From: Sediminibacterium sp.
GTDB taxonomy: Bacteria; Bacteroidota; Bacteroidia; Chitinophagales; Chitinophagaceae
Length of the DNA: 64,000 bases
Assembly: GCF_019264485.1 (NCBI RefSeq)
Contig: NZ_JAHVAA010000003.1
Location: 2,355 to 66,354 of the forward strand
Direction: 5' to 3'
The translations under genes were made by a program, and so were the position numbers. Under the pieces are notes generated by a model that saw only the letters and a program-made list of their open reading frames with translations, ran no database searches and was not told the origin of the DNA. How positions within the stretch are numbered: position 1 is the first letter of the stretch; each line of letters starts with the position of its first letter. This document shows, piece after piece, positions 3,462 through 37,169 of the stretch.

Positions 3462-4511
3462 TCATTGATAATCAGCTATATGTCTCAAAAAAACCATATA
3501 AACCGGAAAATGGTCGCTATAGCCACCCCTATACCGGTTTCCTTCCCAGGTACGCATAGGGTAGCCTTTAAACCTTCCGCTGTATTCGGCCAGGTAGGGA
3601 GGATTAAAAATATGATCCCTGAAAAAATGGAAACCAGCACTGGTTTTATCGAGCCAGCTCTGAGAAAGCATGACCTGATCAAATAAACCCCAGCGATCTT
3701 TATGAGCGAGGGTACCCACTCCTTTTTGCAACCAGCTACCCCAGGGATTGAATAAATCACCCGGTTTTAATTCTTCTTTTTTTGCTTTGGCCCTCAATCC
3801 CTCCCTGATGCTTTCGTCGCCGGGGTCATCATTCATATCGCCCATCACAATCAGTTTAGCTGCAGGATTTTTTGCCTGGATCGAATCAATATGTTTTCTG
3901 CATACGCCAGCCGCCGCCATACGAGCCGGATCACTTCTTTCCTGACCACCTCTTCTGCTCGGCCAGTGACTTACATATATATGTACCGTATCTGTATGCA
4001 GTAGACCTTTACAGTATAAAATGTCTCTTGTAAAATATCCATCTTTACTATTGCTCGGTAAAGCCACAAATAATTTCTGTGCTTCAATCGGAATAAAATA
4101 GGCAGGGTTATAAATCAAAGCAACATCAACACCTCTTGCATCTTTCGATGAAGCATGTACAATATGATAATTCCTTTTCTGCAATACCGGATGCTGAACA
4201 AGAAACTGAAGTACGGTATCGTTTTCAATTTCAGCTACACCTAATATGCTCAAACCATTGTCTGTATAAGTAGTACCTATTTCACTAATCACTTTAGCTA
4301 ATTTAGTTAGCTTGTCTTTAAAAATAGCAGTACCATATTTTTTCACACCAGTTGGGGTGAAATCATCATCATTGATCAATGGGTTGTCGATGGTGTCGTA
4401 CAAATTCTCAAGGTTGTAAAAACCAATCACCGCTACCTGATATCTCTTTACTTGTGACGAAGCGCTTAGAGAGAATTGTAGTACGCTCAGAATGAAGAGT
4501 AGTTTTTTCAT
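3462..4511 (-). CDS. secreted endonuclease/exonuclease/phosphatase (EEP) family protein, probable extracellular nuclease
   Basis: Signal peptide 'MKKLLFILSVLQFSLSASSQ'. EEP motifs 'GFYNLENLYD', 'SHWPSRRGG', 'IVMGDMNDDP' and 'GYSDHFPVYM'. Confidence 0.75.
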   Translation of the reverse strand: MKKLLFILSVLQFSLSASSQVKRYQVAVIGFYNLENLYDTIDNPLINDDDFTPTGVKKYGTAIFKDKLTKLAKVISEIGTTYTDNGLSILGVAEIENDTVLQFLVQHPVLQKRNYHIVHASSKDARGVDVALIYNPAYFIPIEAQKLFVALPSNSKDGYFTRDILYCKGLLHTDTVHIYVSHWPSRRGGQERSDPARMAAAGVCRKHIDSIQAKNPAAKLIVMGDMNDDPGDESIREGLRAKAKKEELKPGDLFNPWGSWLQKGVGTLAHKDRWGLFDQVMLSQSWLDKTSAGFHFFRDHIFNPPYLAEYSGRFKGYPMRTWEGNRYRGGYSDHFPVYMVFLRHIADYQ

Positions 4512-4621
4512 GATAAAAGTTGAGTATTTATTACGCTAAATACATTTTTTCATGACCGTATTTCCCGCAAAAATGATCACTGGTAGTACAATTTGTTTTT
4601 GCACTTTCTATTTTGGAAGAA

Positions 4622-7183
4622 ATGATTTGTATGATCCGGTTTATTTTTTTTGTAGCCCATTTAGCATTTTGTTTAGAAGTAGCCGCCTCTCCATGCAAAA
4701 CGGATACACTTCCATCGAAATACGATAGCAGTTTACTACAGCTTTTACTCAGTCAGGAATCGGTAGAAGCAGATGCTATATTGATGAATGAACAGGAAAG
4801 AGGTACAACATCGGCTATTGTATCGGCATTATATGGTGAGAAAGATGTATTCCTGCAAATGGCCTCATTTCAGTTCAGCGCTATGCGTTACAGGTATCGA
4901 GGGTATGATGCATCTCTTTCAGGAGCACTCATTAATGGTTTATGGTTTAACGATCTTCAACAGGGTAATCCCGCATGGTCATTATGGAATGGTCTTTCAC
5001 CAGTAATGAGAAGCAGTATTGATTTTGCGGCTCATCGTTTCCAGGATAACTGGTTGGGCGATGCAGGCATTACTACCAGTAACGATTTGCGGACACTTGC
5101 ACAACGAAAACAGTTGCAGTGGGGTTATGCAAGATCCAATCGCAGCTACACCAACAGGTATCATTTTTCTTATGCTACAGAAACCAATAAAAAAGGCTGG
5201 TCATGGGCAGCATCAGCAAATATTCGGATGGCTACAGAAGGCTACAGAACAGGATGCGAATACCAGTCAGGAGCCTACTATGCAGCCATCGATAAACAAC
5301 TCAGAAAAGCAGGCTTATTATCACTCATCATTTTTGGCTCCATCCAACAATATGGAAAACAGGCTGCGGTAACTGCACCGGTAACAGATTTATTGGGTAT
5401 CAGGTATAATCCCAATTGGGGCTACCAACAAGGCCGGAAACGAAATGCTGCATTAACGGCTCAGCACATGCCTGTTGCTATTCTTTCTTATGAATGGAAC
5501 CCTGATAACCAGTCGGCATGGATTACCAGTATTGGTGCGGTAATGGGAACAAGAACAGATACAGGATTAGATTGGTACCAGGCTGCAGATCCGCGACCGG
5601 ATTATTATCGCTACCTGCCGGCACACCAAACAGATAGTTTATTACGCAATCAGGTAACTGATATGTTGTTAGGGAATAAAGAGCTGCAACAGATTAACTG
5701 GCAACAACTATATGCCATCAATAGTAACTCTTTTGAACGGATTGATGATGTAAACGGCACAGGTGAATCCATATCAGGGAAAAGAGCACATTATTTATTG
5801 GAACAAAGAGTAATAAATACAAAAAGATGGTTGCTGAGTAGTCATTATCAGGCAAGATGGAAAAATAATATGAGCATAGCTGCAGGATTTCAATTCAGTT
5901 ACCAGCAAAATCATCAGTATAAAACAGTGTATGATTTATTGGGTGCAGATTTTCATGTTAACTGGAACCAGTTTGCAGAAAATGATTTTCCTGCAAATCA
6001 GCAGGCTCTTCAATTTGATATCGATCAACCCAATCGCATACTTCGTAAAGGCGACCGATATGGGTATGATTACCTCTCAACCGTTGTATTAACCAGCCTA
6101 TGGACACAAACAGAATATGTTACAAAGAAAATTGATTATCTACTTGGTTTTCGTTTTTCAAAAACGGAGTTTAACCGGAAAGGGTTGGTTCGTAACGGTC
6201 TTTTCCCACGACATTCAAAAGGAGCGTCGGTAGCCAGTCATTTTTTTGATCCTACGCTAAAAATAGGCCTTAGGTTCAAACTGCATGCAAAACATACGCT
6301 TGGTTTTTTAGTTCATACACAAACCAAAGCGCCTTTGTTTGACAATGTATATATCGCCCCGCGTATGCGTGATACCAGACAGGAACAAGTAATGAGTGAA
6401 ACAATATTTAGTGTTGAAATGATGTATCAGTTACTATTACACAAGTTAAAAGCCAGGATAAGTCTTTACCATACTATTTCGCGAAATGGTATGAATGTGC
6501 TTACGTTTTATCATGACGGGTATAGAAATTTTGTGAACTATGCCATTCGCAATATAAACCGCCAATACGCAGGTATTGAATCGGCCATTTCCTGGGAATT
6601 GAATGAACGATGGGAGCTGAGCCTGGCTTTTGCAAAAGGGTTACACAGCTACACGAGCAGACAGGCAGTAACGGTAAGCCTGGATAACAATGAGGCCTTG
6701 CTGGATAAAATGGAAGTGTATGCTAAAAATTTCAGAATAGGAGGTTCCCCACAACAAGTAGCTGGTACAGGTATACGCTACCGTACAGCAAAAAGTTTTT
6801 TTCTTCAGGTGAATACGAATTTTTTTAATGAGCAGTGGCTTGAGTTTAATCCTGTACGCAGAACTTATGAAGCACTCGAAGGCATTCAAAAAGGAAGCGA
6901 GCAATGGTATAAGATTATTAACCAGGAACGGCTGCCTTCCGCCATGCTCCTGAATGTGTTTATAGGAAAAGGTTTCTCTATCCGTAATGTGTATAACAAA
7001 AAACCACTAAGGTTTTTCTGTACAGCAGGTATCAATAACCTGCTGAATGAGCAACGCATAATTACAGGAGGCTATGAACAACTCCGTTTCGATCAGGAAA
7101 CAAAGGACCCGGACCGCTTCCCTCCCAAATTATTTTATGGATACGGGTTGAATTATGCCCTGTCTGTTTCACTTAGTTTTTAA
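4622..7183 (+). CDS. TonB-dependent-receptor-like outer membrane beta-barrel (atypical N-terminus)
   Basis: Signal peptide, plug-like 'YRYRGYDASLSGALINGL', a long beta-rich body, and a C-terminal aromatic 'SVSLSF'. The start is uncertain (ATG 4622 or 4631). Confidence 0.6.
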   Translation: MICMIRFIFFVAHLAFCLEVAASPCKTDTLPSKYDSSLLQLLLSQESVEADAILMNEQERGTTSAIVSALYGEKDVFLQMASFQFSAMRYRYRGYDASLSGALINGLWFNDLQQGNPAWSLWNGLSPVMRSSIDFAAHRFQDNWLGDAGITTSNDLRTLAQRKQLQWGYARSNRSYTNRYHFSYATETNKKGWSWAASANIRMATEGYRTGCEYQSGAYYAAIDKQLRKAGLLSLIIFGSIQQYGKQAAVTAPVTDLLGIRYNPNWGYQQGRKRNAALTAQHMPVAILSYEWNPDNQSAWITSIGAVMGTRTDTGLDWYQAADPRPDYYRYLPAHQTDSLLRNQVTDMLLGNKELQQINWQQLYAINSNSFERIDDVNGTGESISGKRAHYLLEQRVINTKRWLLSSHYQARWKNNMSIAAGFQFSYQQNHQYKTVYDLLGADFHVNWNQFAENDFPANQQALQFDIDQPNRILRKGDRYGYDYLSTVVLTSLWTQTEYVTKKIDYLLGFRFSKTEFNRKGLVRNGLFPRHSKGASVASHFFDPTLKIGLRFKLHAKHTLGFLVHTQTKAPLFDNVYIAPRMRDTRQEQVMSETIFSVEMMYQLLLHKLKARISLYHTISRNGMNVLTFYHDGYRNFVNYAIRNINRQYAGIESAISWELNERWELSLAFAKGLHSYTSRQAVTVSLDNNEALLDKMEVYAKNFRIGGSPQQVAGTGIRYRTAKSFFLQVNTNFFNEQWLEFNPVRRTYEALEGIQKGSEQWYKIINQERLPSAMLLNVFIGKGFSIRNVYNKKPLRFFCTAGINNLLNEQRIITGGYEQLRFDQETKDPDRFPPKLFYGYGLNYALSVSLSF

Positions 7184-7193
7184 ATAATTAACT

Positions 7194-8537
7194 ATGAAAA
7201 TAAGAAACTGTTTTTATCTGCTGCTCTCTGTGCCCCTGTTAACAGGTATAACCAATTGTCATAAGCCATTTGATGAACCGCCTGCATATCATGGACCGAT
7301 GATCAGTTCAAATACAAGTATTGCAGAACTAAAGCGGCTACACCTGCTTAATAATTTTGAAAAAATAATGGATGACCTGGTGATTGAAGGAATCGTAATA
7401 GCCAACGACCAGACCGATAATTTTTATAAGTCGATTGTTGTACAGGATAGTACGGGAGGCATCACTATCCGGTTAGATGGTTATTCTCTTTTTAATGTGT
7501 ACCCGGTTGGTAGAAAAATATTTGTGAGACTGAAAGGTTTATGGATGGGCGATTATGCAGGTATGATTCAATTGGGTGCTGGTGTTGATCGTTCTGATCC
7601 ATTATCACCACAATTGTCTTCCATACCACAGCCATTATTCGACAGGGTACTAATTAAAGGACCAATGCAACAAAAACTGGTCCCCAAAAAACTTGCTATA
7701 AGTGAATTGGCCGATAGTCTGCAAAGTACACTGATTACATTAATCAATGTAGAGTTTGCCAGTTCCGATACGGGAAAACCTTATGCAGACGCGATTAATA
7801 AACAGGCAGTGAGTCATACAATGAGAACCTGTGGCATTGGTACTGTATATGTACGAACAGGAGGTTTTGCTCGTTTTGCATCTGCATTAACAGCAAGAGG
7901 AAATGGTGAAATAACGGGCGTGTATAGTATTTTCAGAACACAGAAACAATTATTGCTCAGAGATACCAATGATGTAAAACTGGATGGGTTAAGGTGCACA
8001 CAAACCGGTCCTAAGCAAATGTTTGCAGAAGATTTTACAGGTCAGCAAACAGATAGCAGCATACACTTAACTGATTGGAAAAATATTCCTGAAACCGGCG
8101 ATCGTTATTTCCTCGCGAAAACTTCGGCAGGAAATACTTATGCAGAAATCAGTGCGTTTGCTACAAAAGAACAGTCGGTCATCAGCTGGCTCATTCTGCC
8201 TCGTATTGATCTTGAGTACTCTTCAAATGAATTACTGCGTTTTCAAACAAGGGACGGATTTGATAATGGAGCGGTATTGCAGGTATTGTATTCCACCAAT
8301 TACGACGGAGGAGCTTCGCCATGGAAGGCAAAATGGAACAAGCTGGATGCAGTTATTGCAAAAGGCGCTGTTTCAGGATATGCAAAAGATTGGGTTGCTT
8401 CGGGAGACGTGAGCTTGCATGCACTCAAAGGAAAAGTATATATCGCATTTCGTTACGAAGGAAATGACCCGCCTGCACAAGTGGCCAAACTCACTACCAC
8501 TTTCAGAATTGATAATATTCAGGTATTGGGGAATTAA
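7194..8537 (+). CDS. lipoprotein with an OB-fold-like (DUF5689-like) N-domain and a choice-of-anchor-J-like C-domain
   Basis: Signal peptide ends in Cys ('LLTGITNC'). OB-like 'VIEGIVIANDQTDNFYKSIVVQDSTGGITIRL...KIFVRLKGLWMG'. The C-terminal module is paralogous to a module in the giant protein. The gene starts 10 nt after the barrel gene. Confidence 0.55.
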   Translation: MKIRNCFYLLLSVPLLTGITNCHKPFDEPPAYHGPMISSNTSIAELKRLHLLNNFEKIMDDLVIEGIVIANDQTDNFYKSIVVQDSTGGITIRLDGYSLFNVYPVGRKIFVRLKGLWMGDYAGMIQLGAGVDRSDPLSPQLSSIPQPLFDRVLIKGPMQQKLVPKKLAISELADSLQSTLITLINVEFASSDTGKPYADAINKQAVSHTMRTCGIGTVYVRTGGFARFASALTARGNGEITGVYSIFRTQKQLLLRDTNDVKLDGLRCTQTGPKQMFAEDFTGQQTDSSIHLTDWKNIPETGDRYFLAKTSAGNTYAEISAFATKEQSVISWLILPRIDLEYSSNELLRFQTRDGFDNGAVLQVLYSTNYDGGASPWKAKWNKLDAVIAKGAVSGYAKDWVASGDVSLHALKGKVYIAFRYEGNDPPAQVAKLTTTFRIDNIQVLGN

Positions 8538-8592: not shown

Positions 8593-9909
8593 TTACCTGA
8601 TTTTGATCAGTTGTACCACTTTTCTTTCTCTTCCCTGAACCAGTTCAGCATAATAAGTGCCGGGGTTCAGGCGATGTCCTACCTGAACGGTACTGTTAGC
8701 GTTCAGATTATTTCTGCTTTCAAGAGCTCGACCTGTAACATCAATAATGCGAAGTTGAACTGGTGCTTCTGTTTTACCTGAAATTTTCAGTGTAAAGAAT
8801 GTACGGCTTGGGTTTGGCATTACTGTTACATTTAATAAACCGGTAGTTTCAGTAGCAGGTTTTTCTTCTGCTATGATCTTACTGCTTATTACAGGCTGGT
8901 TATTACTAGCAGCCACAGTATTAACAGTGCAATTGTTATTGTTCCATGTAATATTGCCACCCTTGCTTTCTACCTGTTCTGCAATAAACAATCCTGTCAT
9001 GTAAATAGCTGAAGTATTGCTGTTCCATTTTCCATGACCCTTGTTTTCAGCAGTTACTTTCAGTTTGCCGTTTGGCATATACACGTTTGCATTTACACGT
9101 ACATCTTCACCTTTCACCTGGAATTTTTCATCATCGCATTTGGTATCACCCATGTAGAAAGTTACTTTATGGTTATCAGGGTTTAGTATCACGCGATTGC
9201 CAATACTTACTTTCTTACTTACCTTAAGTTGAGTGCCGCCATTGAACCTGATATTGCTGTAGGCTGTTTTACCGCCTTCTTCAACGATCAATTCTTCAAT
9301 GCTCACTGCAGCGGCAGTAAAGCGGATGTTAGCGCCTTTATCTGCTTTAATTACTCCGAAAACAGTACCATTTAGCGTAACTGTTGCATTTTCTTTGATA
9401 GTAATGTCATTATAATTACCACTTAATGTAACCGTCGTATTCTTCTGAACAGAAGTGTTTGGAAGGTTACGCGTGTTACTGGTATTATAGAACATGGTTG
9501 GTAAACTTACTGTTGCTGAACCATAAATTTTGTTCGGGATATTGATGCCCGATCCATCGAGGTCAATTCTTGGTGCTTTTACAAATGCGCCTGGGGCAGC
9601 TACAGAACTGTTTTTGTCAAAGGAAGCCTCGCCTCGTCTGTTCATTACACCTACACTACCACCAGCAACTGTATTCGATTCACCCAGTTTTACTTCTTCA
9701 TAAGCAAGTATGGTATAATTGCTTACAAGGTTTTGTTTCTGATAGGTGAACGATGTGTTGTTGGCACTACTGCAACCTGCTGCATCGGTAATAGTGAGTG
9801 AGTAGGCCCCATCTCCATTGCTAAGACCAAGGTTCAGTTGGGAACCAGTGCCTACAACAGTATTGTTATAGAACCATTTGTAGCTATAGTTGCCACTGTT
9901 TCCAGACAA
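8593..9909 (-). CDS. C-terminal fragment of the giant surface protein: Ig-like module, beta-helix-like region, T9SS C-terminal sorting domain
   Basis: T9SS CTD 'VMPNPSRTFFTL...PGTYYAELVQG...VQLIKIR'. No signal peptide, and the only available start is TTG. It is in the same frame as 10183..15135 (see findings). Confidence 0.6.
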   Translation of the reverse strand: MSGNSGNYSYKWFYNNTVVGTGSQLNLGLSNGDGAYSLTITDAAGCSSANNTSFTYQKQNLVSNYTILAYEEVKLGESNTVAGGSVGVMNRRGEASFDKNSSVAAPGAFVKAPRIDLDGSGINIPNKIYGSATVSLPTMFYNTSNTRNLPNTSVQKNTTVTLSGNYNDITIKENATVTLNGTVFGVIKADKGANIRFTAAAVSIEELIVEEGGKTAYSNIRFNGGTQLKVSKKVSIGNRVILNPDNHKVTFYMGDTKCDDEKFQVKGEDVRVNANVYMPNGKLKVTAENKGHGKWNSNTSAIYMTGLFIAEQVESKGGNITWNNNNCTVNTVAASNNQPVISSKIIAEEKPATETTGLLNVTVMPNPSRTFFTLKISGKTEAPVQLRIIDVTGRALESRNNLNANSTVQVGHRLNPGTYYAELVQGRERKVVQLIKIR

Positions 9910-10182
9910 TACAAACTGGTTACAGAAAGCATCAGGATTGCTGCTTGTAATGATTGCTGTTGGCGGAGTTGTAATTGTTACCGTGAAACTACAGGTATTG
10001 CTGTTGCCGTTTATATCTGTAACAGTTAATGTAATATTTGATACACCATTGTTGAAAACACCACTGATATTACCTCCACTTCCACTGCGAGTAGTAGCGC
10101 CTGTTATAGTGTAAACAATGCTAGCAATTCCGCAATTATCAGAAAAGCCAATTACTGGAACTGTATATTGGTTGTTGGCCGA

Positions 10183-10185
10183 CTA
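10183..10185 (-). other. in-frame TAG interrupting one long reading frame (8593..15135)
   Basis: Plus strand reads cta, which is TAG on minus. The frame stays open on both sides. Confidence 0.9.
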
Positions 10186-13100
10186 ACAGAATGAGAGATT
10201 GGCAGCACATGCAATTTGTGGAGCCTGGTTATCTGTTACTTGTACAATTTGAGTTGCGATACGAACATTACCGTTTACATCTGTAACCGTCCAGGTAATG
10301 GTTGTTGAGCCGGTTGGGAAAGCATCTGTTAATGGCAAACCATCGTTCCTTACTCCTGTAATGGTAGCAATACCACAATTGTCGTTTGTCTCAGGTTGAG
10401 TAATGCTGATGAATGCATCGCATCTGCCAGCCTGAGCAGACATGGATATTGCATTTACAACTACAACAGGCGGCTGGTTATCAATAACAGTTACTTCTTG
10501 TTTGGCCGTATCGGTAATATTGCCATGAATATCTGTTACTGTCCAGGTAACAATCGTAGTTCCAACCGGGAACTGTGCCGGTGCGTTATTGGTAACAGAT
10601 GCAATACCACAATTGTCTGCTACTGTTGCTGAACCAAGCGAGCTAATAGTGCCATAACAAACGCCATTATCGCTTACAATACTCACTGCTGCCGGAGCCT
10701 GAATGGTTGGTTTTTGGTTGTCTGTAACCGTAATCAACTGCTCTTTAGTATTGCTATTGCCATAAGTATCAACGGCGGTCCAGGTAACTTTCGTTACGCC
10801 CACTGGGAAAGTTTGCGGTGCATCGCTGGTAATGGATACGATATTATTGAATCCGGTAACAACGGGTGTTGGTAATGTTGTTGTTATTGAGCATACACCG
10901 GCATCTGTAAAGAAGCCAAGATCGGTAACCGATATTGTTGGTTTGCTGAAATAACGCCAGTCATATTTCGTAATGATTGGGAAGTGATCTGATGTTGTAC
11001 TGGCGAAACCATTAATCAGTGTGAGTACATCCCTGTAAACTTTTGCGGAGTTCTGTACATATGCAATACTCATTTCACTCGATGTAATAACGTGATCAAT
11101 CATATCGGGGAAAGAAGCAGTAGAGCTATTGCCAGTTAAACTCAATGGTAATGTAACAGGCGTATAATTGGCCGCATCATTCAGGAATGAACTGTAAGAG
11201 CTTGCTGTGATGGGGGCCATCTCTGTGGTAATGGTTTTGTCGAAGTCATCATTCATATCGCCGAGTATAATAATCCGGCTGTTCGGGAAAGCAGCGTCTA
11301 ATGAATCTTTCAATTCATCAGCTCCTGCTTTTCTTCGCTGGTATCCTTCAATCTTGTCGGCGGTATTACCTGTATTGGCTTTGGCATGTATTACAATAAA
11401 ATCAACAACACTTGTAGCTCCGTTTAGTGTTACCTCAGCCTGCATCAGGAAGGGGAAACGACCGCTGGCCCAACTGTTATAGGCATTGCCGGAACTGGCC
11501 TGCAACAGGGGCCGGCTGCTCAGTTTCTTCACTACATCTTTATTGTAAATAAAACCAAGCTTCTGTGCGCCTGCATAATCAGGATCATTTACATCATCGG
11601 CATAGGAACCATAAGTATTTACAACATATCCATAATTTCCAGGCAAAGACTCCGCCAGATTTTTAAATCGTAAAGTATCAACAATTTCAACCAGCGCATA
11701 CACATCTGCTTTCAGCGTGTTGAGCACCGTTGTTACATTTTGTTGCTGCAGATCTTTGTTGTTCGGACCCAGTCCGGCTTCGGTACTGCCAAACCATTCC
11801 AGGTTCCAGTTTACCACTTTTAAGGTTCTGAGAGAAGTGCCCGTAAAACTCATACCCTGAATGATGGTGCCGTTATTGGTAATTAAGGCATTCACCTGTC
11901 CGGAATAATTCTGGTCGGCTGCCAAAGGTCTGAAACGCGCATAAATAGTTTTACGTGTATTGGCATCAGCAGCAGGTATGGTAACAGAAGAACCAAAACT
12001 GTTGCCATCCATACTTATTTCAAATCCGGTTGGGGCAGTTACACTGATATCGTCTGATACATTATAACCTTCAACAGAGAATGTTCTGTTGGCAGAAGTT
12101 TGTCCGTTCGCTATATAATCAAAATCAATATTTCCGCCACGTATGTCAACGCCGGGTGCTGCAGGTACTGCAGAGTTCGTAACATTAAAATCGTCGAGTG
12201 TCCATCTTGCAGCGTTTAAAACAGGTGATGAAGTGTACACAAAAGCGATATATACATTCGCTGTTTTATAAGCCGACAAATCGATCTGATCGCTGGTAGT
12301 CCATACATCAGACTCTGCTTCAGCAAAGCGCCCATTAATCTCAGTCCACTGAGCGAGGTTTGGATCACCAGCTCCTGTATAGTTCGAAGATACCATGAGT
12401 TTTAAGGAAGGACCTGCAAAACGAACACGTGAAGCAAAGCTCAACAGCGGGTAATCAAACCCTGATAAATCGAAGGAGGGCGAAATGAGCCAGTCTTCAT
12501 TAGTCTGGGCACCACTAACAAAACCATTGATCTGAACACCATTACCTGTTTTGCCAAATGTGGTACAACCCCATACCTGTGCACCGGTAACACTGTACTG
12601 TGTAAAGCCACCCGGCAGATTACTTACACAATCGTTGAAATTAAAACTGGTAGGAGGTGCGCCTGTACTAAAGCTCCATGTGTTGGCCGCAATCCCTGCA
12701 AAAGCGTTGCCACCCAAATCAACCAAAGCTCCTGCATCTATTGTTACGTAATAAGATTTAAATGCAGAGAGGTTGGTATTCAGACTTAACGTTTCTGCAG
12801 CAATGCTAACGGCAGGGTCATTAATAGTAAAGACCTGACTTGTGCCATTGGTTGCATTGTGTAATGTAATATTTCCTGTTCCGGGAACGATGGTTTCGTT
12901 GAATGTAACAGCAATTGAACCTGCTGGCGTAATACCTGTTGAACCTGTAGCAGGGTTATAACTGGTCACGAGCGGGGCTGTTACATCACCGGGTGTATAA
13001 CCTCTCACTACCAGGTTGTCGATGCTGATTTTAGGTCTTGACCCTGTTGATCCGCCACTGCCATTATGATAATAGAAACGCAATCTGGCATTAGGGTTAT

Positions 13101-15135
13101 TACTGAAATTAGACGGTAATGCAATACCTGCTACTGTTCCGTTAGTAGGAGCGTTATTGGTAATATTCAGCACAGCTGCTGCTGTTATTTCTGTGAAATT
13201 TACACCATCGGTACTGCTGTATATGCGAAGAGAACCTTTCCTGTCGCCGGTACTGTTGTTAACAGATGCCCAGTTAAACGCAATGGTTCCTGCATTTACA
13301 CCCGTGAAATCAAGTAAGAGATCAACAGCTACTGCGGTGGTATTATCAGCAGCACCTGTTGCCAGTAAAACAAGGCTGCCGCTGCCACGTTGTACACCAC
13401 CCGAAGATCCGCTACTGAAGCTATTGGTAGCTGTTGTAGTGCGAATGCCGTTTGGAATAGTTCCATTAGCATTTACAGCAACGGGGCCGAAATTAATGGC
13501 ACCATTATCAGATGCAAAGCCATTTGACCAGCTGGAAATATTATCGAAATTCTGTGTATAAGCCAGTGCAGCTTGTTGTGCCATGATTACAGGCCGTGCA
13601 GTTGTAATAAATGATTGCTGCGGACCATAAGCTGTGCCGCCTGCATTGGTTACAAATGCTTTTACGTAATAAATAGTATTGGCATTTAAACCATTCAGTG
13701 GGGCACTGAAATTATTGCCCGACAAGTTATTTGCTGTAACTACTATACCTGTTCCATTGGCAAAATTATTAGTGGTACTGTATTCAAATCCGTATGCAGA
13801 AGCAGGAGAACAACCTGCATTGGTAATATCACCAGCCAGTGTTGCGGTTGTTGATCCGATATTACTGATGAGTTGTGTATTTACAGAAGCAGTGCTGTTA
13901 ACACCATTACCAATCGCTGGGTAAGAAAGAGTGGTTCCACCTCCAGAGAGGTTAAAATTGTTTTGATACGACTGAACTACAACAGGTGTAAAACGAACAT
14001 ATACAGTAGTTGCGTTTAAAGTGCTGCCAGAATAATTGAGTTGAATGCTACTTCCAAAACTACCGTTGGCAGTTGCAGCAACACTAAATCCATCAGGTGC
14101 AGTAATGGTAACCGGACTTCCATCTAAATCAGTTCCATTAACGGTGAAAGAAGTATTGGTGGTGGTATTGATACATTGATTGCCAAAATCAAAACTTGCG
14201 GGGTTGACAATCAGTAAAGGATTGCCTGGTACTTCGCGTGTAACCTGTATACTGTAAGTTGATACAGTTATACCATCCTGTGCTGTTACCTGTATGGTAA
14301 TATTGTTTACACCTGTATTTAAAGCAATTGCCTGCGAAACATTTCCGTTTGCAACTGGTAAATTGTTTACAGTAATGGCTGCCAGTACGTCTGTTGCAAC
14401 AGGTGTAAGCGTAATACTATTCACTGCAGCAGGAACTGTGCTGCTGTAAGAAAAATTGTTAGATGTAAATGAAGGCGTTAAAGAACCAGCGCTTAGCGCA
14501 AGTGATGATAGCGATGATATATTGGTAGGAACGCTTGCACTAACAGAAAGTGTAAGATCATCAATACGCCAGTTGGTGGTATTGGCAGCTGGGGAACCAG
14601 TGCCGTTATAACCGTAAATCCTGAAGGTTGTAGCAGAAGAAGCACTAAAGGTTAAGCCTGTATGGCTTTTCAAACTCCATGAGCTGTTATTACTAATCGA
14701 TCCCGATACAATATCAGTGGTAAAATTATCCGCACTCGATCTTATGGTATAAGCCTGGGGAGCGGTACTAGTGCTCCTTGTACCAAAACTAATTCCATTC
14801 AATGTAAAAGTATAACCATTGGCAGGAGTAAGTGTAAATTCAAAATAAGCACTACTGTTGGCCGCCAGGTTTAATGCTCCCGTCCTTGCAGCCACACCTG
14901 CATTGCCACCTGCTGAAAAACCAGGGTAGGTACTGGAAACAGATACAGTTGTTATTAGTTCGTTGGTAGTACCATTGTTATTACCCCTGCTTATATCTGA
15001 AGCGGTAATATTTGTGGTAGTTAAAGAGGGAGAAGCGGTGGTAAAGTTCCATCCGATGCTTTGTGCCTGGGTAATAAATGATATTACAACAAGGCAAAAA
15101 ACGCCGAAGAAACGGCTCAGGTACAGTTTTCTCAT
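10183..15135 (-). CDS. giant secreted multidomain protein: cadherin-like/Ig-like modules, choice-of-anchor-J-like module, EEP nuclease domain (about 10960..11835), HYR repeats. It ends at a premature-looking TAG.
   Basis: Signal peptide 'MRKLYLSRFFGVFCLVVISFITQAQS' (ATG 15135). EEP motifs 'VNWNLEWFG', 'IILGDMNDDF' and 'TSDHFPIITKY'. HYR-like repeats such as 'FPVGVTKVTWTAVDTYGN' and 'FPVGTTIVTWTVTDIHGN'. Confidence 0.75.
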   Translation of the reverse strand: MRKLYLSRFFGVFCLVVISFITQAQSIGWNFTTASPSLTTTNITASDISRGNNNGTTNELITTVSVSSTYPGFSAGGNAGVAARTGALNLAANSSAYFEFTLTPANGYTFTLNGISFGTRSTSTAPQAYTIRSSADNFTTDIVSGSISNNSSWSLKSHTGLTFSASSATTFRIYGYNGTGSPAANTTNWRIDDLTLSVSASVPTNISSLSSLALSAGSLTPSFTSNNFSYSSTVPAAVNSITLTPVATDVLAAITVNNLPVANGNVSQAIALNTGVNNITIQVTAQDGITVSTYSIQVTREVPGNPLLIVNPASFDFGNQCINTTTNTSFTVNGTDLDGSPVTITAPDGFSVAATANGSFGSSIQLNYSGSTLNATTVYVRFTPVVVQSYQNNFNLSGGGTTLSYPAIGNGVNSTASVNTQLISNIGSTTATLAGDITNAGCSPASAYGFEYSTTNNFANGTGIVVTANNLSGNNFSAPLNGLNANTIYYVKAFVTNAGGTAYGPQQSFITTARPVIMAQQAALAYTQNFDNISSWSNGFASDNGAINFGPVAVNANGTIPNGIRTTTATNSFSSGSSGGVQRGSGSLVLLATGAADNTTAVAVDLLLDFTGVNAGTIAFNWASVNNSTGDRKGSLRIYSSTDGVNFTEITAAAVLNITNNAPTNGTVAGIALPSNFSNNPNARLRFYYHNGSGGSTGSRPKISIDNLVVRGYTPGDVTAPLVTSYNPATGSTGITPAGSIAVTFNETIVPGTGNITLHNATNGTSQVFTINDPAVSIAAETLSLNTNLSAFKSYYVTIDAGALVDLGGNAFAGIAANTWSFSTGAPPTSFNFNDCVSNLPGGFTQYSVTGAQVWGCTTFGKTGNGVQINGFVSGAQTNEDWLISPSFDLSGFDYPLLSFASRVRFAGPSLKLMVSSNYTGAGDPNLAQWTEINGRFAEAESDVWTTSDQIDLSAYKTANVYIAFVYTSSPVLNAARWTLDDFNVTNSAVPAAPGVDIRGGNIDFDYIANGQTSANRTFSVEGYNVSDDISVTAPTGFEISMDGNSFGSSVTIPAADANTRKTIYARFRPLAADQNYSGQVNALITNNGTIIQGMSFTGTSLRTLKVVNWNLEWFGSTEAGLGPNNKDLQQQNVTTVLNTLKADVYALVEIVDTLRFKNLAESLPGNYGYVVNTYGSYADDVNDPDYAGAQKLGFIYNKDVVKKLSSRPLLQASSGNAYNSWASGRFPFLMQAEVTLNGATSVVDFIVIHAKANTGNTADKIEGYQRRKAGADELKDSLDAAFPNSRIIILGDMNDDFDKTITTEMAPITASSYSSFLNDAANYTPVTLPLSLTGNSSTASFPDMIDHVITSSEMSIAYVQNSAKVYRDVLTLINGFASTTSDHFPIITKYDWRYFSKPTISVTDLGFFTDAGVCSITTTLPTPVVTGFNNIVSITSDAPQTFPVGVTKVTWTAVDTYGNSNTKEQLITVTDNQKPTIQAPAAVSIVSDNGVCYGTISSLGSATVADNCGIASVTNNAPAQFPVGTTIVTWTVTDIHGNITDTAKQEVTVIDNQPPVVVVNAISMSAQAGRCDAFISITQPETNDNCGIATITGVRNDGLPLTDAFPTGSTTITWTVTDVNGNVRIATQIVQVTDNQAPQIACAANLSFC

Positions 15136-15157
15136 GGATTTGAGTTTGTTTGGATAA

Positions 15158-15165
15158 CAAATGTA
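15158..15165 (-). promoter_or_regulatory. candidate Bacteroidota -7 box (TACATTTG) for the giant protein gene
   Basis: caaatgta on plus gives TACATTTG on minus, matching TAnnTTTG, 22 nt upstream of ATG 15135. No clear -33 TTG. Confidence 0.35.
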
Positions 15166-15301
15166 GCATTCCAACTGAAATGACATTTTTTCCCTGGATC
15201 AATTGATCATTAAATTTTATTTAGGTGGATAACTTGTCAACCTGTCAGTTTTCTCCCCTTTGGTACTTTCTTTGTTCATATGCGCTGAAAACAAGAGAAC
15301 C

Positions 15302-34182: not shown

Positions 34183-35301
34183 ATGATTCTTGGTATACTA
34201 AGTGAAAGAAATACAGACAAAAGAGTATCGCTCTTACCGGAACAGGCAGACGCACTGGTTAAAAAGAATGTAGCGGTATGGATGGAGAAAGGCGCAGGTG
34301 AAAATGCATTTGCAGCCGATACTGTTTATACAGACAAGCAGGTTGTTTTACAGGATCGTAATACGATCTTATCACAGAGCGATTTGCTGCTTTGTATTCA
34401 TCCGCTGTCAGCAGCAGAAATCAGTTTATTAAAACCCGGTCAGGTAATAGTAGGGGTGTTTCAACCCTTATTCAATATTACACTGATGCAGGAGCTGGCT
34501 GCAAAACAGGTAACATTATTCAGCCTCGATTTAATTCCACGTACCACCCGTGCACAAAGTATGGATGTGTTGAGCAGTCAGGCGAATATTGCAGGATACA
34601 GGGCCGTATTACTGGCAGCTACATTATTCCCCCGTTATTTCCCCATGTTTATGACGGCTGCAGGTAGTATACCTCCTGCAAAAGTATTAATCATCGGTGC
34701 CGGTGTAGCAGGTTTGCAAGCCATAGCAACGGCACGTAGACTGGGTGCAGTAGTGGAAGTGTCTGATACAAGACCTGCTGTAAAAGAAGAAGTGATGAGT
34801 CTGGGTGCGAAATTTATTGAAGTAGAAGGAGCCGCCGATGCATCAAAAGCAGGTGGTTATGCAGTGGAACAGTCAGAAGAGTTCAAACAAAGACAACAAC
34901 AAAGACTGGCAGAATCGGTGGCCAAATCTGATATCATTATCACCACTGCACAGATACCCGGTAAAAAAGCACCATTGCTGGTTACCGAATCTATGTTGAA
35001 CAGTATGAAACCTGGTAGTGTAATTATTGATCTTGCTGCTTCAACAGGCGGAAATGTATTTGCTACAAAAAATAATGAAACCATTGTTCATAACGGAGTA
35101 ACCATCATGGGTAACAGTAACCTGGCAGCCGATATGCCATGGGATGCCAGTAAACTATACGGAAAAAACGTACTCAACTTCCTGCAACTCATCATTGACA
35201 AAGAGGCGCAACTAAACCTCAACTTTGAAGATGACCTGGTGAAAGGATGCTGTATTACACATGGAGGAGAACTGGTGCATGAGAGGGTGAAGAAAGCGTG
35301 A
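34183..35301 (+). CDS. pntA: NAD(P) transhydrogenase subunit alpha, part 1
   Basis: 'VLIIGAGVAGLQAIATARRLGA' NAD-binding motif and an alanine dehydrogenase/PNT fold pattern. Confidence 0.9.
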   Translation: MILGILSERNTDKRVSLLPEQADALVKKNVAVWMEKGAGENAFAADTVYTDKQVVLQDRNTILSQSDLLLCIHPLSAAEISLLKPGQVIVGVFQPLFNITLMQELAAKQVTLFSLDLIPRTTRAQSMDVLSSQANIAGYRAVLLAATLFPRYFPMFMTAAGSIPPAKVLIIGAGVAGLQAIATARRLGAVVEVSDTRPAVKEEVMSLGAKFIEVEGAADASKAGGYAVEQSEEFKQRQQQRLAESVAKSDIIITTAQIPGKKAPLLVTESMLNSMKPGSVIIDLAASTGGNVFATKNNETIVHNGVTIMGNSNLAADMPWDASKLYGKNVLNFLQLIIDKEAQLNLNFEDDLVKGCCITHGGELVHERVKKA

Positions 35302-35362
35302 ATAGTCAGTAGTGAGTAGTGAGTAGAATATTTTGAATACTCACTATTCACTACTCACTATA
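35298..35362. repeat. heptamer-hairpin element (TRGTGAR family), copy 1
   Basis: The left arm gtgaatagtcagtagtgagtagtgagta overlaps the pntAA stop. The right arm is tactcactattcactactcactata. Confidence 0.85.
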
Positions 35363-35402
35363 CTGGTTGCCGATAAAAAAATCTATCTAAACTAACATAC
35401 AA

Positions 35403-35711
35403 ATGGAAGCCGTTTTAAACTGGATACAGGCGCATATCGAAATTATCTACATCGTACTCCTGTCAATTTTTTTAGGAATTGAAGTGATTGGACGTGTGCC
35501 GAGTGTATTACATACGCCGCTTATGAGTGGTGCCAATGCCATTCATGGAGTGGTAATTATTGGAGCCATTATTGTGATGGGGAAGGTAGAGCCGGGTAAT
35601 TATATTGCACTTGTAATCGGCTTTTTGGCGGTAGTACTTGGCACACTCAATGTGGTGGGCGGATTTGTAGTGACCGACCGGATGCTTGAAATGTTTAAAA
35701 AGAAAAAATAG
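35403..35711 (+). CDS. pntA: NAD(P) transhydrogenase subunit alpha, part 2 (membrane)
   Basis: 102 aa with 3 TM segments, located between pntAA and pntB. Confidence 0.85.
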   Translation: MEAVLNWIQAHIEIIYIVLLSIFLGIEVIGRVPSVLHTPLMSGANAIHGVVIIGAIIVMGKVEPGNYIALVIGFLAVVLGTLNVVGGFVVTDRMLEMFKKKK

Positions 35712-35747
35712 TATATCGCTCCCGAACAGGGATTGAAAAAAATAAGT

Positions 35748-37169
35748 ATGGAATTAAGTCTGCTCACTCTTTGTTACCTGATTGGTTCGTTGACATTTAT
35801 CATCGGACTAAAAATGCTGTCACACCCCGACTCTGCCAGGAAAGGTAATCTGGTGGCTGCTGTGGGTATGGCGGTTGCTATTTTCGGCACCATTTTTTTG
35901 TATGAAGAAGAAGGGAAGAAACTGGGTAATTACGAATGGATTTTTGGCGGACTTATTTTAGGTACCATCGTTGGTGTATTAGCAGCAAGAAAAGTAAAGA
36001 TGACTGCTATGCCCGAAATGGTGAGCCTGTTCAATGGAATGGGAGGAGCCTGCGCAGCGTTGATTTCTTTTATTGAATTTGATCATATTAAAGATGCTTT
36101 TGCCAAAGGGATAACTATTGAAATTCATGCCGGAACTTTAATAACCATATTTCTTGGGTTAATTATTGGCTCAGTTTCTTTTGCAGGAAGTGTGATTGCA
36201 TGGGGTAAACTGAATGGCAAAATCAAAGACTTTGCTTTTCCGGGTCAGCAAATATTTAACCTTGTTTTATTAGCGGCAACATTGGTAACAGCAGGTTATC
36301 TGGTGTTTAACCTCAATGCAGAAAATTACTGGCTCTTCTATGGTATTGCCATTGCTTCATTGATTTATGGTGTGTTATTTGTATTACCCATTGGTGGCGC
36401 CGATATGCCCGTGGTTATTTCATTACTCAACTCCTTTACCGGTGTAGCTGCTGCCTGTGGTGGTTTCCTTTACGATAACCAGGTAATGTTAACAGGAGGT
36501 ATACTTGTAGGTGCAGCAGGTACATTGCTCACCATACTCATGTGTAAAGCAATGAACAGAAGTCTTACCAATGTATTGATTGGGTCTTTTGGTGGTAATA
36601 AATTTAGTGGTGCCAGTGCTTCACAAGGCCCGCAGGGTAATTACAAAGAAATATCTATTTCCGACGCTGCTGTATGTATGTGTTATGCCAATAAAGTAAT
36701 TATTGTTCCGGGTTATGGACTGGCAGTGGCACAGGCACAACATACCTGTCATGAACTGGAGAAATTACTGGAAGAAAAAGGAGTTGCTGTTACTTATGCT
36801 ATTCACCCGGTAGCAGGTCGTATGCCGGGTCATATGAATGTGTTATTGGCGGAAGCAGATGTGAGCTACGATAAACTGCAGGAAATGGAACAGGCCAACG
36901 ATGAATTTAAAACTACTGATGTGGTACTCATACTGGGCGCCAATGATGTGGTAAATCCTGCAGCTAAAACCGATCCATCATCGCCCATTTATGGCATGCC
37001 CATTCTCGAAGTGGAACAGGCTAAAACAGTAATCGTAAATAAGCGTAGTATGAAACCCGGTTATGCGGGTATTGAAAATGAACTCTTCTTCCAGCCAAAA
37101 ACATCCATGTTATTTGGCGATGCAAAAGCGGCGTTACAAAAATTAGTTACGGAGATCAAAGCGTTATAA
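35748..37169 (+). CDS. pntB: NAD(P) transhydrogenase subunit beta
   Basis: A multi-TM N-half and an NADP(H)-binding C-half ('VPGYGLAVAQAQ', 'IHPVAGRMPGHMNVLLAEA', 'GANDVVNPAA'). Confidence 0.9.
   Translation: MELSLLTLCYLIGSLTFIIGLKMLSHPDSARKGNLVAAVGMAVAIFGTIFLYEEEGKKLGNYEWIFGGLILGTIVGVLAARKVKMTAMPEMVSLFNGMGGACAALISFIEFDHIKDAFAKGITIEIHAGTLITIFLGLIIGSVSFAGSVIAWGKLNGKIKDFAFPGQQIFNLVLLAATLVTAGYLVFNLNAENYWLFYGIAIASLIYGVLFVLPIGGADMPVVISLLNSFTGVAAACGGFLYDNQVMLTGGILVGAAGTLLTILMCKAMNRSLTNVLIGSFGGNKFSGASASQGPQGNYKEISISDAAVCMCYANKVIIVPGYGLAVAQAQHTCHELEKLLEEKGVAVTYAIHPVAGRMPGHMNVLLAEADVSYDKLQEMEQANDEFKTTDVVLILGANDVVNPAAKTDPSSPIYGMPILEVEQAKTVIVNKRSMKPGYAGIENELFFQPKTSMLFGDAKAALQKLVTEIKAL

What the first reader, a model, noticed from the sequence alone, without database searches (positions are those of the whole stretch)
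8593..15135. One in-frame TAG splits a roughly 2,180-codon T9SS surface nuclease inside an HYR repeat
ORFs 10183..15186 and 8593..9909 are in the same frame. Reading the minus strand through the TAG at 10183..10185 gives '...TDNQAPQIACAANLSFC*SANNQYTVPVIGFSDNCGIASIVYTITGATTRSGSGGNISGVFNNGVSNITLTVTDINGNSNTCSFTVTITTPPTAIITSSNPDAFCNQFVLSGNSGNYSYKW...', with no other stop.

The stop sits in the middle of the fourth HYR-like repeat. Compare the second repeat, '...AAVSIVSDNGVCYGTISSLGSATVADNCGIASV...'.

The Sec signal peptide is only on the upstream piece. The T9SS C-terminal sorting domain is only on the downstream piece. Neither piece alone has a complete export route.

TAG is a genuine stop elsewhere in the window (e.g. 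35709..35711). The options are therefore a recent nonsense mutation, a sequencing error, low-level readthrough, or a deliberately truncated periplasmic form.
Basis: seen in the sequence. Interest (0 to 1): 0.7.

Follow-up and report, generated by a model that had tools for sequence, protein, structure and literature searches.

The report
Recent nonsense mutation in surface protein gene
A single C-to-T change has put a stop codon into one strain's copy of a very large secreted enzyme gene that is intact in all its relatives, so this is an ordinary fresh pseudogene (or a base-calling error), not a special coding mechanism.

Summary
On the minus strand, one TAG (10183..10185) is the only interruption of a 2,180-codon frame (15135..8593). 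That frame encodes a signal peptide, several beta-sandwich domains, a DNase I-like EEP domain, four HYR repeats and a T9SS type A sorting domain.

More than ten relatives from Sediminibacterium and other Chitinophagaceae carry one intact gene of 2,180-2,182 aa at the same syntenic locus. One of them is a conspecific contig that is 98.6% identical over 17.7 kb. Where DNA was read, the codon at this position is CAG in six loci and CAA in two. Two more distant proteins have Lys. The TAG is therefore a strain-specific C>T transition.

The 529 codons after it still show strong purifying selection (dN/dS 0.06; 37 synonymous against 8 non-synonymous window-specific changes) and have no further defects. 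The change is thus very recent or a consensus error.

TAG ends at least four real genes in the window. The window holds no tRNA, and the nearest other differences from the conspecific contig lie 26 nt upstream and 39 nt downstream of the TAG. Programmed readthrough and a designed two-gene arrangement are not supported.

The predicted result is a 1,650-aa periplasmic protein that cannot use the T9SS. This is ordinary and of low interest.

The parts
8593..15135 (-). Ancestral single gene of 2,180 codons plus the TAA stop at 8593..8595: a giant multidomain T9SS cargo protein, interrupted here by one TAG
   Evidence: It is collinear over 99% of its length with intact proteins of 2180-2182 aa at the syntenic locus.
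10183..10185 (-). Premature TAG at codon 1651. Relatives have CAG or CAA (Gln). The change is C>T on the coding strand, which is G>A on the + strand at 10185.
   Evidence: L001, L002, L003, L005, L007 and L025 have CAG. L004 and L008 have CAA.
10186..15135 (-). Upstream piece of 1,650 codons. It carries the signal peptide, the beta-sandwich domains, the EEP domain and HYR repeats 1-3 plus 13 residues of repeat 4.
   Evidence: it is in the protein collection as P0010.
15064..15135 (-). Predicted Sec signal peptide, MRKLYLSRFFGVFCLVVISFITQA
   Evidence: Read directly from the sequence. The N-terminus is conserved in all orthologues. No predictor was run.
14233..14508 (-). Cadherin-like beta-sandwich domain (PF12733)
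   Evidence: 59.7 bits. Coordinates.
12664..12987 (-). Bacterial Ig-like domain Big_5 (PF13205)
   Evidence: 54.8 bits. Coordinates.
10984..11811 (-). Endonuclease/exonuclease/phosphatase (EEP) catalytic domain with a DNase I-like fold
   Evidence: PF03372, 29.7 bits against a cut-off of 24.5. (invariant N, E, H, D-N-D-D and D-H motifs). (pLDDT 88; best PDB matches are DNase I, with a target-normalised TM-score of 0.77-0.78).
9964..10944 (-). Four tandem HYR-like repeats (10714..10944, 10474..10713, 10225..10473, 9964..10224). The TAG lies in the fourth.
8596..10182 (-). Downstream 529 codons, now untranslated or orphaned: the rest of HYR repeat 4, an Ig-like domain, a beta-rich region of about 300 aa, and the sorting domain
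   Evidence: dN/dS is 0.06 against L001. Window-specific changes are 37 synonymous against 8 non-synonymous.
8593..9909 (-). The 438-aa ORF from the first in-frame TTG, 92 codons after the TAG. It is probably a gene-caller artefact, with no signal peptide.
   Evidence: (P0122).
8602..8823 (-). T9SS type A C-terminal sorting domain
   Evidence: TIGR04183, 29.3 bits against a cut-off of 23. (PF18962, 26.6 bits against 27). Coordinates.

Best explanation
This is one ancestral gene for a 2,180-aa T9SS cargo protein. Its order of parts is: Sec signal peptide, several beta-sandwich or Ig-like domains, a DNase I-like EEP catalytic domain, four HYR repeats, a beta-rich stalk and a type A sorting domain.

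In this strain the gene carries a very recent, lineage-specific CAG(Gln)>TAG nonsense substitution at codon 1651. Translation ends there.

The 1,650-aa product keeps its signal peptide and its catalytic domain. It should therefore be exported to the periplasm by Sec. Because it lacks the C-terminal sorting domain, the T9SS cannot recognise it, and it should not be secreted or attached to the cell surface (inferred). The remaining 529 codons are a fresh gene remnant, not a second gene.

Shown here: the gene is a single gene in relatives, the change is a single base, it is confined to this sequence, and it is recent. Inferred: the fate of the truncated protein, and that the base call is real.
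For: 1. Nine or more full-length orthologues (2180-2182 aa, 76-94% identity, 99% coverage) span the stop position.

2. These orthologues sit at the same syntenic locus, between htpG/fer2-reductase/recJ on one side and DUF5689/856-aa protein/EEP_3/rpsF on the other.

3. All eight full-length orthologous loci whose DNA was read have no internal stop. One is from an isolate, Sediminibacterium goheungense DSM 28323.

4. The codon at the site is CAG in six loci and CAA in two. Two more distant proteins have Lys.

5. The conspecific contig L025 is 98.6% identical over 17,702 nt with no gaps. It reads CAG, and its nearest other differences lie 26 nt upstream and 39 nt downstream of the TAG.

6. Selection has not relaxed downstream of the stop. 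dN/dS against L001 is 0.061 downstream and 0.145 upstream. Window-specific changes downstream are 37 synonymous against 8 non-synonymous, where neutrality would predict about 1:3.4. There are no further stops or frameshifts in the 529 codons.

7. TAG is an ordinary stop in this genome. It ends at least four real genes in the window.

8. Both pieces (P0010, P0122) are recorded with NCBI and Logan among their sources. This suggests that more than one assembly has the TAG.

9. The CTD is described as necessary and sufficient for T9SS secretion (PMC10202324).
Against: No reads are available, so a wrong consensus base cannot be excluded. The NCBI and Logan records may derive from the same read set.

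The complete lack of decay downstream fits an error as well as it fits a very recent mutation.

The TAG allele was seen in no other sequence. The 90% clusters of both pieces contain only one other member each, and both of those are intact.

The periplasmic fate of the truncated product is extrapolated from other T9SS cargos and was not tested.
Confidence: 0.62

Rival explanations
1. The TAG is a sequencing, consensus or assembly error. The organism actually has CAG and one ordinary intact 2,180-aa gene.
For: The difference from conspecific L025 is a single base. The downstream 529 codons are flawless and look fully constrained. No other sequence among about 15 billion proteins shows the same truncation. 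Another MAG in the family (L009) has a frameshift in the HYR region while a 99% identical protein is intact, so assembly defects may occur in this repetitive gene.
Against: A substitution error in a consensus is uncommon at normal coverage, and the site is not in a homopolymer. Both pieces are listed with both NCBI and Logan as sources, which suggests two assemblies agree. The rest of the window shows no other broken genes.
Confidence: 0.3
2. The TAG is real but leaky. A suppressor tRNA or context-dependent readthrough yields some full-length, surface-displayed protein alongside the truncated form.
For: The downstream part is still perfectly intact. A one-step suppressor inserting Gln at UAG would restore the ancestral residue (inference).
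Against: The stop is not conserved in any relative. The nearest other differences from CAG-bearing L025 lie 26 nt upstream and 39 nt downstream of the TAG, so no co-evolved signal is evident. The window has no tRNA gene. TAG ends at least four normal genes. The next base is U, and from my own knowledge of E. coli tetranucleotide stop signals (Poole, Brown and Tate 1995) that is an efficient termination context. The intactness is explained equally well by recency.
Confidence: 0.04
3. The truncation is a selected arrangement. Either it is a periplasmic enzyme plus a separately translated C-terminal gene, or it is an adaptive loss of a surface-exposed, strain-variable module (for example escape from phage or grazers).
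For: The TAG lies inside the segment (8824..10473) that is exchanged as a cassette between conspecific strains. That points to diversifying pressure on this part of the protein. The enzyme domain is retained upstream.
Against: The downstream piece has no in-frame ATG, GTG or TTG for 91 codons and no signal peptide, so its sorting domain would be useless. Relatives never have two genes here, apart from one frameshifted MAG. The allele is seen only once. Nothing distinguishes selection from drift for a single recent mutation.
Confidence: 0.04

Closest known systems
Nonsense-mutation pseudogenes / truncated alleles of bacterial surface proteins
   Same: A single-base premature stop in one strain. 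Orthologues at the syntenic locus are intact. There is no secondary decay yet. The secretion or anchoring signal is separated from the passenger.
   Different: Nothing distinctive. The only particulars are the size of the gene (6.5 kb) and that the stop falls within a strain-variable cassette.
T9SS type A CTD cargo proteins of Bacteroidota (e.g. gingipains of P. gingivalis, large multidomain adhesins and enzymes of Flavobacterium and Chitinophagaceae)
   Same: An N-terminal Sec signal peptide, a modular passenger of Ig-like and HYR domains, and a C-terminal TIGR04183 sorting domain. [quoted passage not shown]
   Different: In this window the CTD is no longer part of the same polypeptide because of the TAG. 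T9SS machinery genes were not looked for.
Extracellular EEP / DNase I-like nucleases (ExeM/NucH family, mycoplasma MnuA, proteins combining a lamin-tail domain with an EEP domain)
   Same: An EEP catalytic domain with conserved metal-binding and catalytic residues. The best fold match is DNase I. More distant relatives are named 'lamin tail domain-containing' or 'choice-of-anchor J' proteins.
   Different: Scores against NF033681 (22 bits against 300) and NF045851 (26 bits against 185) are far below the family cut-offs. There is no sequence-level PDB relative. The substrate is unknown: the EEP fold also includes phosphatases and sphingomyelinases.

Membership tests
Pseudogene / truncated allele by recent nonsense mutation | Orthologues at the syntenic locus are single intact genes spanning the stop | tested here: met
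   Proteins of 2180-2182 aa cover 99% of the read-through, with the same flanking genes.
Pseudogene / truncated allele by recent nonsense mutation | The stop is one mutational step from the ancestral sense codon and is lineage-specific | tested here: met
   CAG in six loci, including the conspecific L025, and CAA in two. TAG occurs only in the window.
Pseudogene / truncated allele by recent nonsense mutation | The base is really present in the organism (not an error) | not testable with these tools
   No reads are available. The only indirect hint is that both pieces are listed from NCBI and Logan.
Programmed stop-codon readthrough / TAG recoding (suppression, pyrrolysine, reassigned code) | The in-frame stop is conserved among orthologues | tested here: not met
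   All relatives have Gln or Lys codons.
Programmed stop-codon readthrough / TAG recoding (suppression, pyrrolysine, reassigned code) | TAG is not used, or is depleted, as a terminator of ordinary genes | tested here: not met
   TAG ends the pntA small subunit, a GFO/IDH/MocA oxidoreductase, ThuA and LpxB.
Programmed stop-codon readthrough / TAG recoding (suppression, pyrrolysine, reassigned code) | A cognate tRNA(CUA) or recoding machinery is present | tested here: inconclusive
   There is no tRNA in the 64-kb window. The rest of the genome was not available.
T9SS type A cargo protein | A C-terminal sorting domain matching TIGR04183 / PF18962 | tested here: met
   29.3 bits against a cut-off of 23. 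PF18962 scores 26.6 bits against 27. The domain lies at 8602..8823.
T9SS type A cargo protein | An N-terminal Sec signal peptide on the same polypeptide as the CTD | tested here: not met
   The signal peptide is present at 15064..15135 (by inspection), but the TAG at codon 1651 separates it from the CTD in this sequence. The feature is met in all orthologues.
T9SS type A cargo protein | The host encodes the T9SS machinery | not tested
   This was not searched. It is expected for Chitinophagaceae from general knowledge.
EEP (DNase I-like) superfamily | Pfam PF03372 above the gathering score, and conserved catalytic residues | tested here: met
   29.7 bits against 24.5; invariant N22, E61, H161, D204/N206/D207 and D294-H295 (domain numbering) across 30 sequences.
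EEP (DNase I-like) superfamily | A four-layer alpha/beta sandwich fold | tested here: met
   Model pLDDT is 88. DNase I structures are the top matches (E 1.6e-14, target-normalised TM-score 0.77).
ExeM/NucH or MnuA extracellular nuclease families | The NCBIfam model score reaches the family cut-off | tested here: not met
   NF033681 scores 22.1 bits against 300, and NF045851 scores 25.6 bits against 185.
HYR domain repeats | PF02494 above the gathering score | tested here: met
   (51.6 and 45.5 bits against 21.7). Four repeats are aligned.

The most novel reading that the evidence does not exclude
The nonsense mutation is real and was favoured by selection. It removes from the cell surface a module (HYR3 to the stalk, 8824..10473) that conspecific strains exchange as a cassette exactly at domain boundaries. 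That would make it a quick escape from a phage, predator or other agent that recognises this surface protein, while an active EEP enzyme is kept in the periplasm.
Probability: 0.05. Interest if true: 0.35.

Novelty: already known. Interest (0 to 1): 0.1.

Why it matters
It matters little beyond annotation. The two database entries (1,650 aa and 438 aa) should be treated as one disrupted gene, and the 438-aa 'protein' is almost certainly not real.

If the base is genuine, this strain has lost surface display of a giant DNase I-like enzyme that all its relatives keep. That is a natural knockout, and it could be used to ask what the protein does.

The more interesting biology lies next to the finding. 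The C-terminal part of this gene exists as alternative cassettes, exchanged at domain boundaries, within one species.

Tried and rejected
**Alternative genetic code or TAG reassignment.** Rejected: TAG ends at least four bona fide genes in the window.

**Suppressor tRNA nearby.** None found in the window.

**Other split genes in the window, as a sign of poor assembly or recoding.** The three other same-frame adjacent ORF pairs are unrelated genes: Pro_dh and ThyA, an unknown protein and a methyltransferase, and a cNMP-binding protein and an SDR.

**Independent downstream gene.** Rejected: the first in-frame start is a TTG 92 codons after the stop, and there is no signal peptide.

**The source contig or other carriers of the TAG allele.** Exact look-ups of both pieces returned nothing. 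The metagenome scan around the junction gave only one more distant locus (L024, 76% identity). The genome scan did not return the window's own genome.

**Sequence-level PDB relatives.** None for the EEP domain and none for the neighbouring 856-aa protein. One call failed because I gave the wrong frame.

**Not attempted.** RNA folding around the stop was not run, because the nearest other differences from the CAG-bearing conspecific contig lie 26 nt upstream and 39 nt downstream of the TAG.
Full report
**Observation.** The ORF list shows 10183..15186(-) (1,667 aa) and 8593..9909(-) (438 aa) in the same frame. The DNA reads ...TTC TGT TAG TCG GCC..., with the TAG at 10185..10183.

All orthologues start at MRKLYLS, the ATG at 15135. 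This is 17 codons inside the mechanical ORF. From there the frame is 1,650 codons, the TAG, then 529 codons. The total of 2,180 is exactly the length of the closest intact relatives.

**What the gene encodes.** Pfam and NCBIfam find the following on the upstream piece:
- a cadherin-like beta-sandwich domain
- Big_5
- a region resembling choice-of-anchor J
- an EEP domain (PF03372, 29.7 bits against a cut-off of 24.5)
- HYR repeats

The downstream piece begins with the last third of an HYR model (positions 53-81). It continues with an Ig-like domain and a beta-rich stretch of about 300 aa. It ends with a T9SS type A sorting domain (TIGR04183, 29.3 bits against 23).

Aligning the four HYR-like repeats puts the stop at residue 14 of the fourth. 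The N-terminus, MRKLYLSRFFGVFCLVVISFITQA|QS, looks like a Sec signal peptide. This was judged by inspection, because no predictor was available.

The EEP domain keeps the invariant N/E, H, D-N-D-D and D-H motifs across 30 homologues. A confident model (pLDDT 88) matches DNase I structures best (E 1.6e-14, target-normalised TM-score 0.77-0.78). Matches to the named nuclease families ExeM/NucH and MnuA are far below their cut-offs, and no PDB sequence relative exists. 'Nuclease' is therefore a sensible inference and not a demonstrated membership.

**Relatives.** A search with the read-through protein returned nine proteins of 2,180-2,182 aa at 76-94% identity, each covering 99% of the query. It also returned the window's own 1,650-aa piece, P0010.

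At the stop position, eight of the nine have Gln and one has Lys. A tenth, more distant protein also has Lys.

Contigs encoding the closest relatives have the same neighbours on both sides:
- one side: htpG, a Fer2 reductase, recJ and a polyprenyl synthase
- other side: a DUF5689 lipoprotein, an unknown protein of about 850 aa, an Exo_endo_phos_3 protein and rpsF/rpsR/rplI

These are therefore true orthologues.

A scan of species-representative genomes places the family in Sediminibacterium and other Chitinophagaceae. It includes the isolate S. goheungense DSM 28323. Every full-length locus I translated has no internal stop. At the DNA level the codon is CAG in L001, L002, L003, L005 and L007, and CAA in L004 and L008.

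**A conspecific comparison.** The 90% cluster of the downstream piece contains a 2,180-aa protein, P0123. Its contig, L025 (a Logan assembly seen in four samples), aligns with the window over 17,702 nt at 98.6% identity without a gap.

In L025 the codon is CAG. The nearest other differences lie 26 nt upstream and 39 nt downstream of the TAG. The event is thus a single C>T transition on the coding strand, which is G>A at + strand position 10185.

**Age of the change.** Between the window and L001, dN/dS is 0.145 upstream of the stop and 0.061 downstream. I polarised the differences from L025 with L001. The window-specific changes downstream of the stop are 37 synonymous and 8 non-synonymous. 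With about 360 synonymous and 1,226 non-synonymous sites, neutral evolution would give roughly 1:3.4.

A stricter polarisation, with L001 as sister and L002 and L003 as outgroups, gives 12 synonymous and 3 non-synonymous. No second stop or frameshift has accumulated in the 529 codons. The downstream part was therefore under purifying selection for essentially all of its divergence. The TAG is either very young or not real.

**Alternatives examined.**
- *Code reassignment* is excluded.
- *Programmed readthrough* requires conservation of the stop, which is absent. No tRNA lies in the window. No nearby sequence change accompanies the stop.
- *A second gene* is implausible. The first in-frame ATG, GTG or TTG is 92 codons downstream, and the product would have a sorting domain but no signal peptide.
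- *Polar effects* do not arise, because the next gene is convergent.
- *A consensus error* cannot be excluded without reads. The only counter-hint is that both pieces are recorded from NCBI and from Logan, an independent assembly resource. Those records may rest on the same reads. Exact look-ups for other carriers returned nothing.

**Consequence (inferred).** The T9SS CTD is described as necessary and sufficient for secretion across the outer membrane (PMC10202324). A 1,650-aa product with a signal peptide and no CTD should therefore stay in the periplasm, or be degraded there, and should not reach the surface. In effect this is a loss of the extracellular function.

**Seen in passing.** A conspecific MAG contig, L026 (GCA_030157325.1), is 98.4-98.6% identical in the flanks but carries an 1,877-aa allele. 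Homology with the window stops exactly at 10474, the end of HYR repeat 2. It resumes exactly at 8823, the first codon of the sorting domain. The segment containing the TAG is therefore a cassette exchanged at domain boundaries.

Both cassette types occur in several Sediminibacterium species. The window and L025 are identical over the first 2.7 kb of the gene. After that they differ in dense patches of 38-40 differences per 300 nt, which is a recombination mosaic.

One other MAG, L009, has a frameshift in the HYR region, while a 99% identical protein, P0021, is intact.

**Verdict.** This is one gene, broken by a single strain-specific base change. It is an ordinary fresh nonsense allele (about 0.6) or a base-calling error (about 0.3). 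Recoding and a designed split are each below 0.05. Novelty: already known. Interest: low.

Noticed in passing
window 8824..10473 (-), compared with L026:10663-11403: Conspecific strains (98.4-98.6% identical flanks) carry alternative C-terminal cassettes in this gene, giving a 2,180-aa and an 1,877-aa allele. The breakpoints fall exactly at the end of HYR repeat 2 and at the first codon of the T9SS sorting domain. Both cassette types recur in several Sediminibacterium species.
   Followed up: partly
window 8593..15135 compared with L025:6001-12543: Divergence from the conspecific contig is mosaic. There are no differences in the first 2.7 kb of the gene, then patches of 38-40 differences per 300 nt. 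This suggests recombination tracts within the gene.
   Followed up: partly
L009:3001-8618: The orthologue in MAG SCNH_1 is split by a frameshift near residues 1462-1470, also in the HYR region. P0021, which is 99% identical, is intact. This is either a second independent disruption or an assembly defect in this repetitive gene.
   Followed up: partly
window 3462..8537: The neighbourhood is conserved in synteny: a DUF5689 / choice-of-anchor-J lipoprotein (7194..8537 +), an 856-aa protein with no family match that ends ...LSVSLSF like an outer-membrane barrel (4613..7183 +), and a second EEP protein (Exo_endo_phos_3, 3462..4511 -). Together with the giant EEP protein, this may be an extracellular nucleic-acid or phosphate scavenging locus.
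   Followed up: partly
window 15136..15186 (-): The mechanical ORF starts at an ATG 17 codons upstream of the conserved start (MRKLYLS at 15135) that all orthologues use. The extra MSFQLECYICYPNKLKS is probably not translated.
   Followed up: yes
window 34183..37169 (+): A three-gene pntAA / pntAB (102 aa, ends in TAG) / pntB transhydrogenase operon. It serves as a clean example of TAG used as a normal stop. The pnt names are my reading of the sequences and gene order; no family search was run on them.
   Followed up: yes
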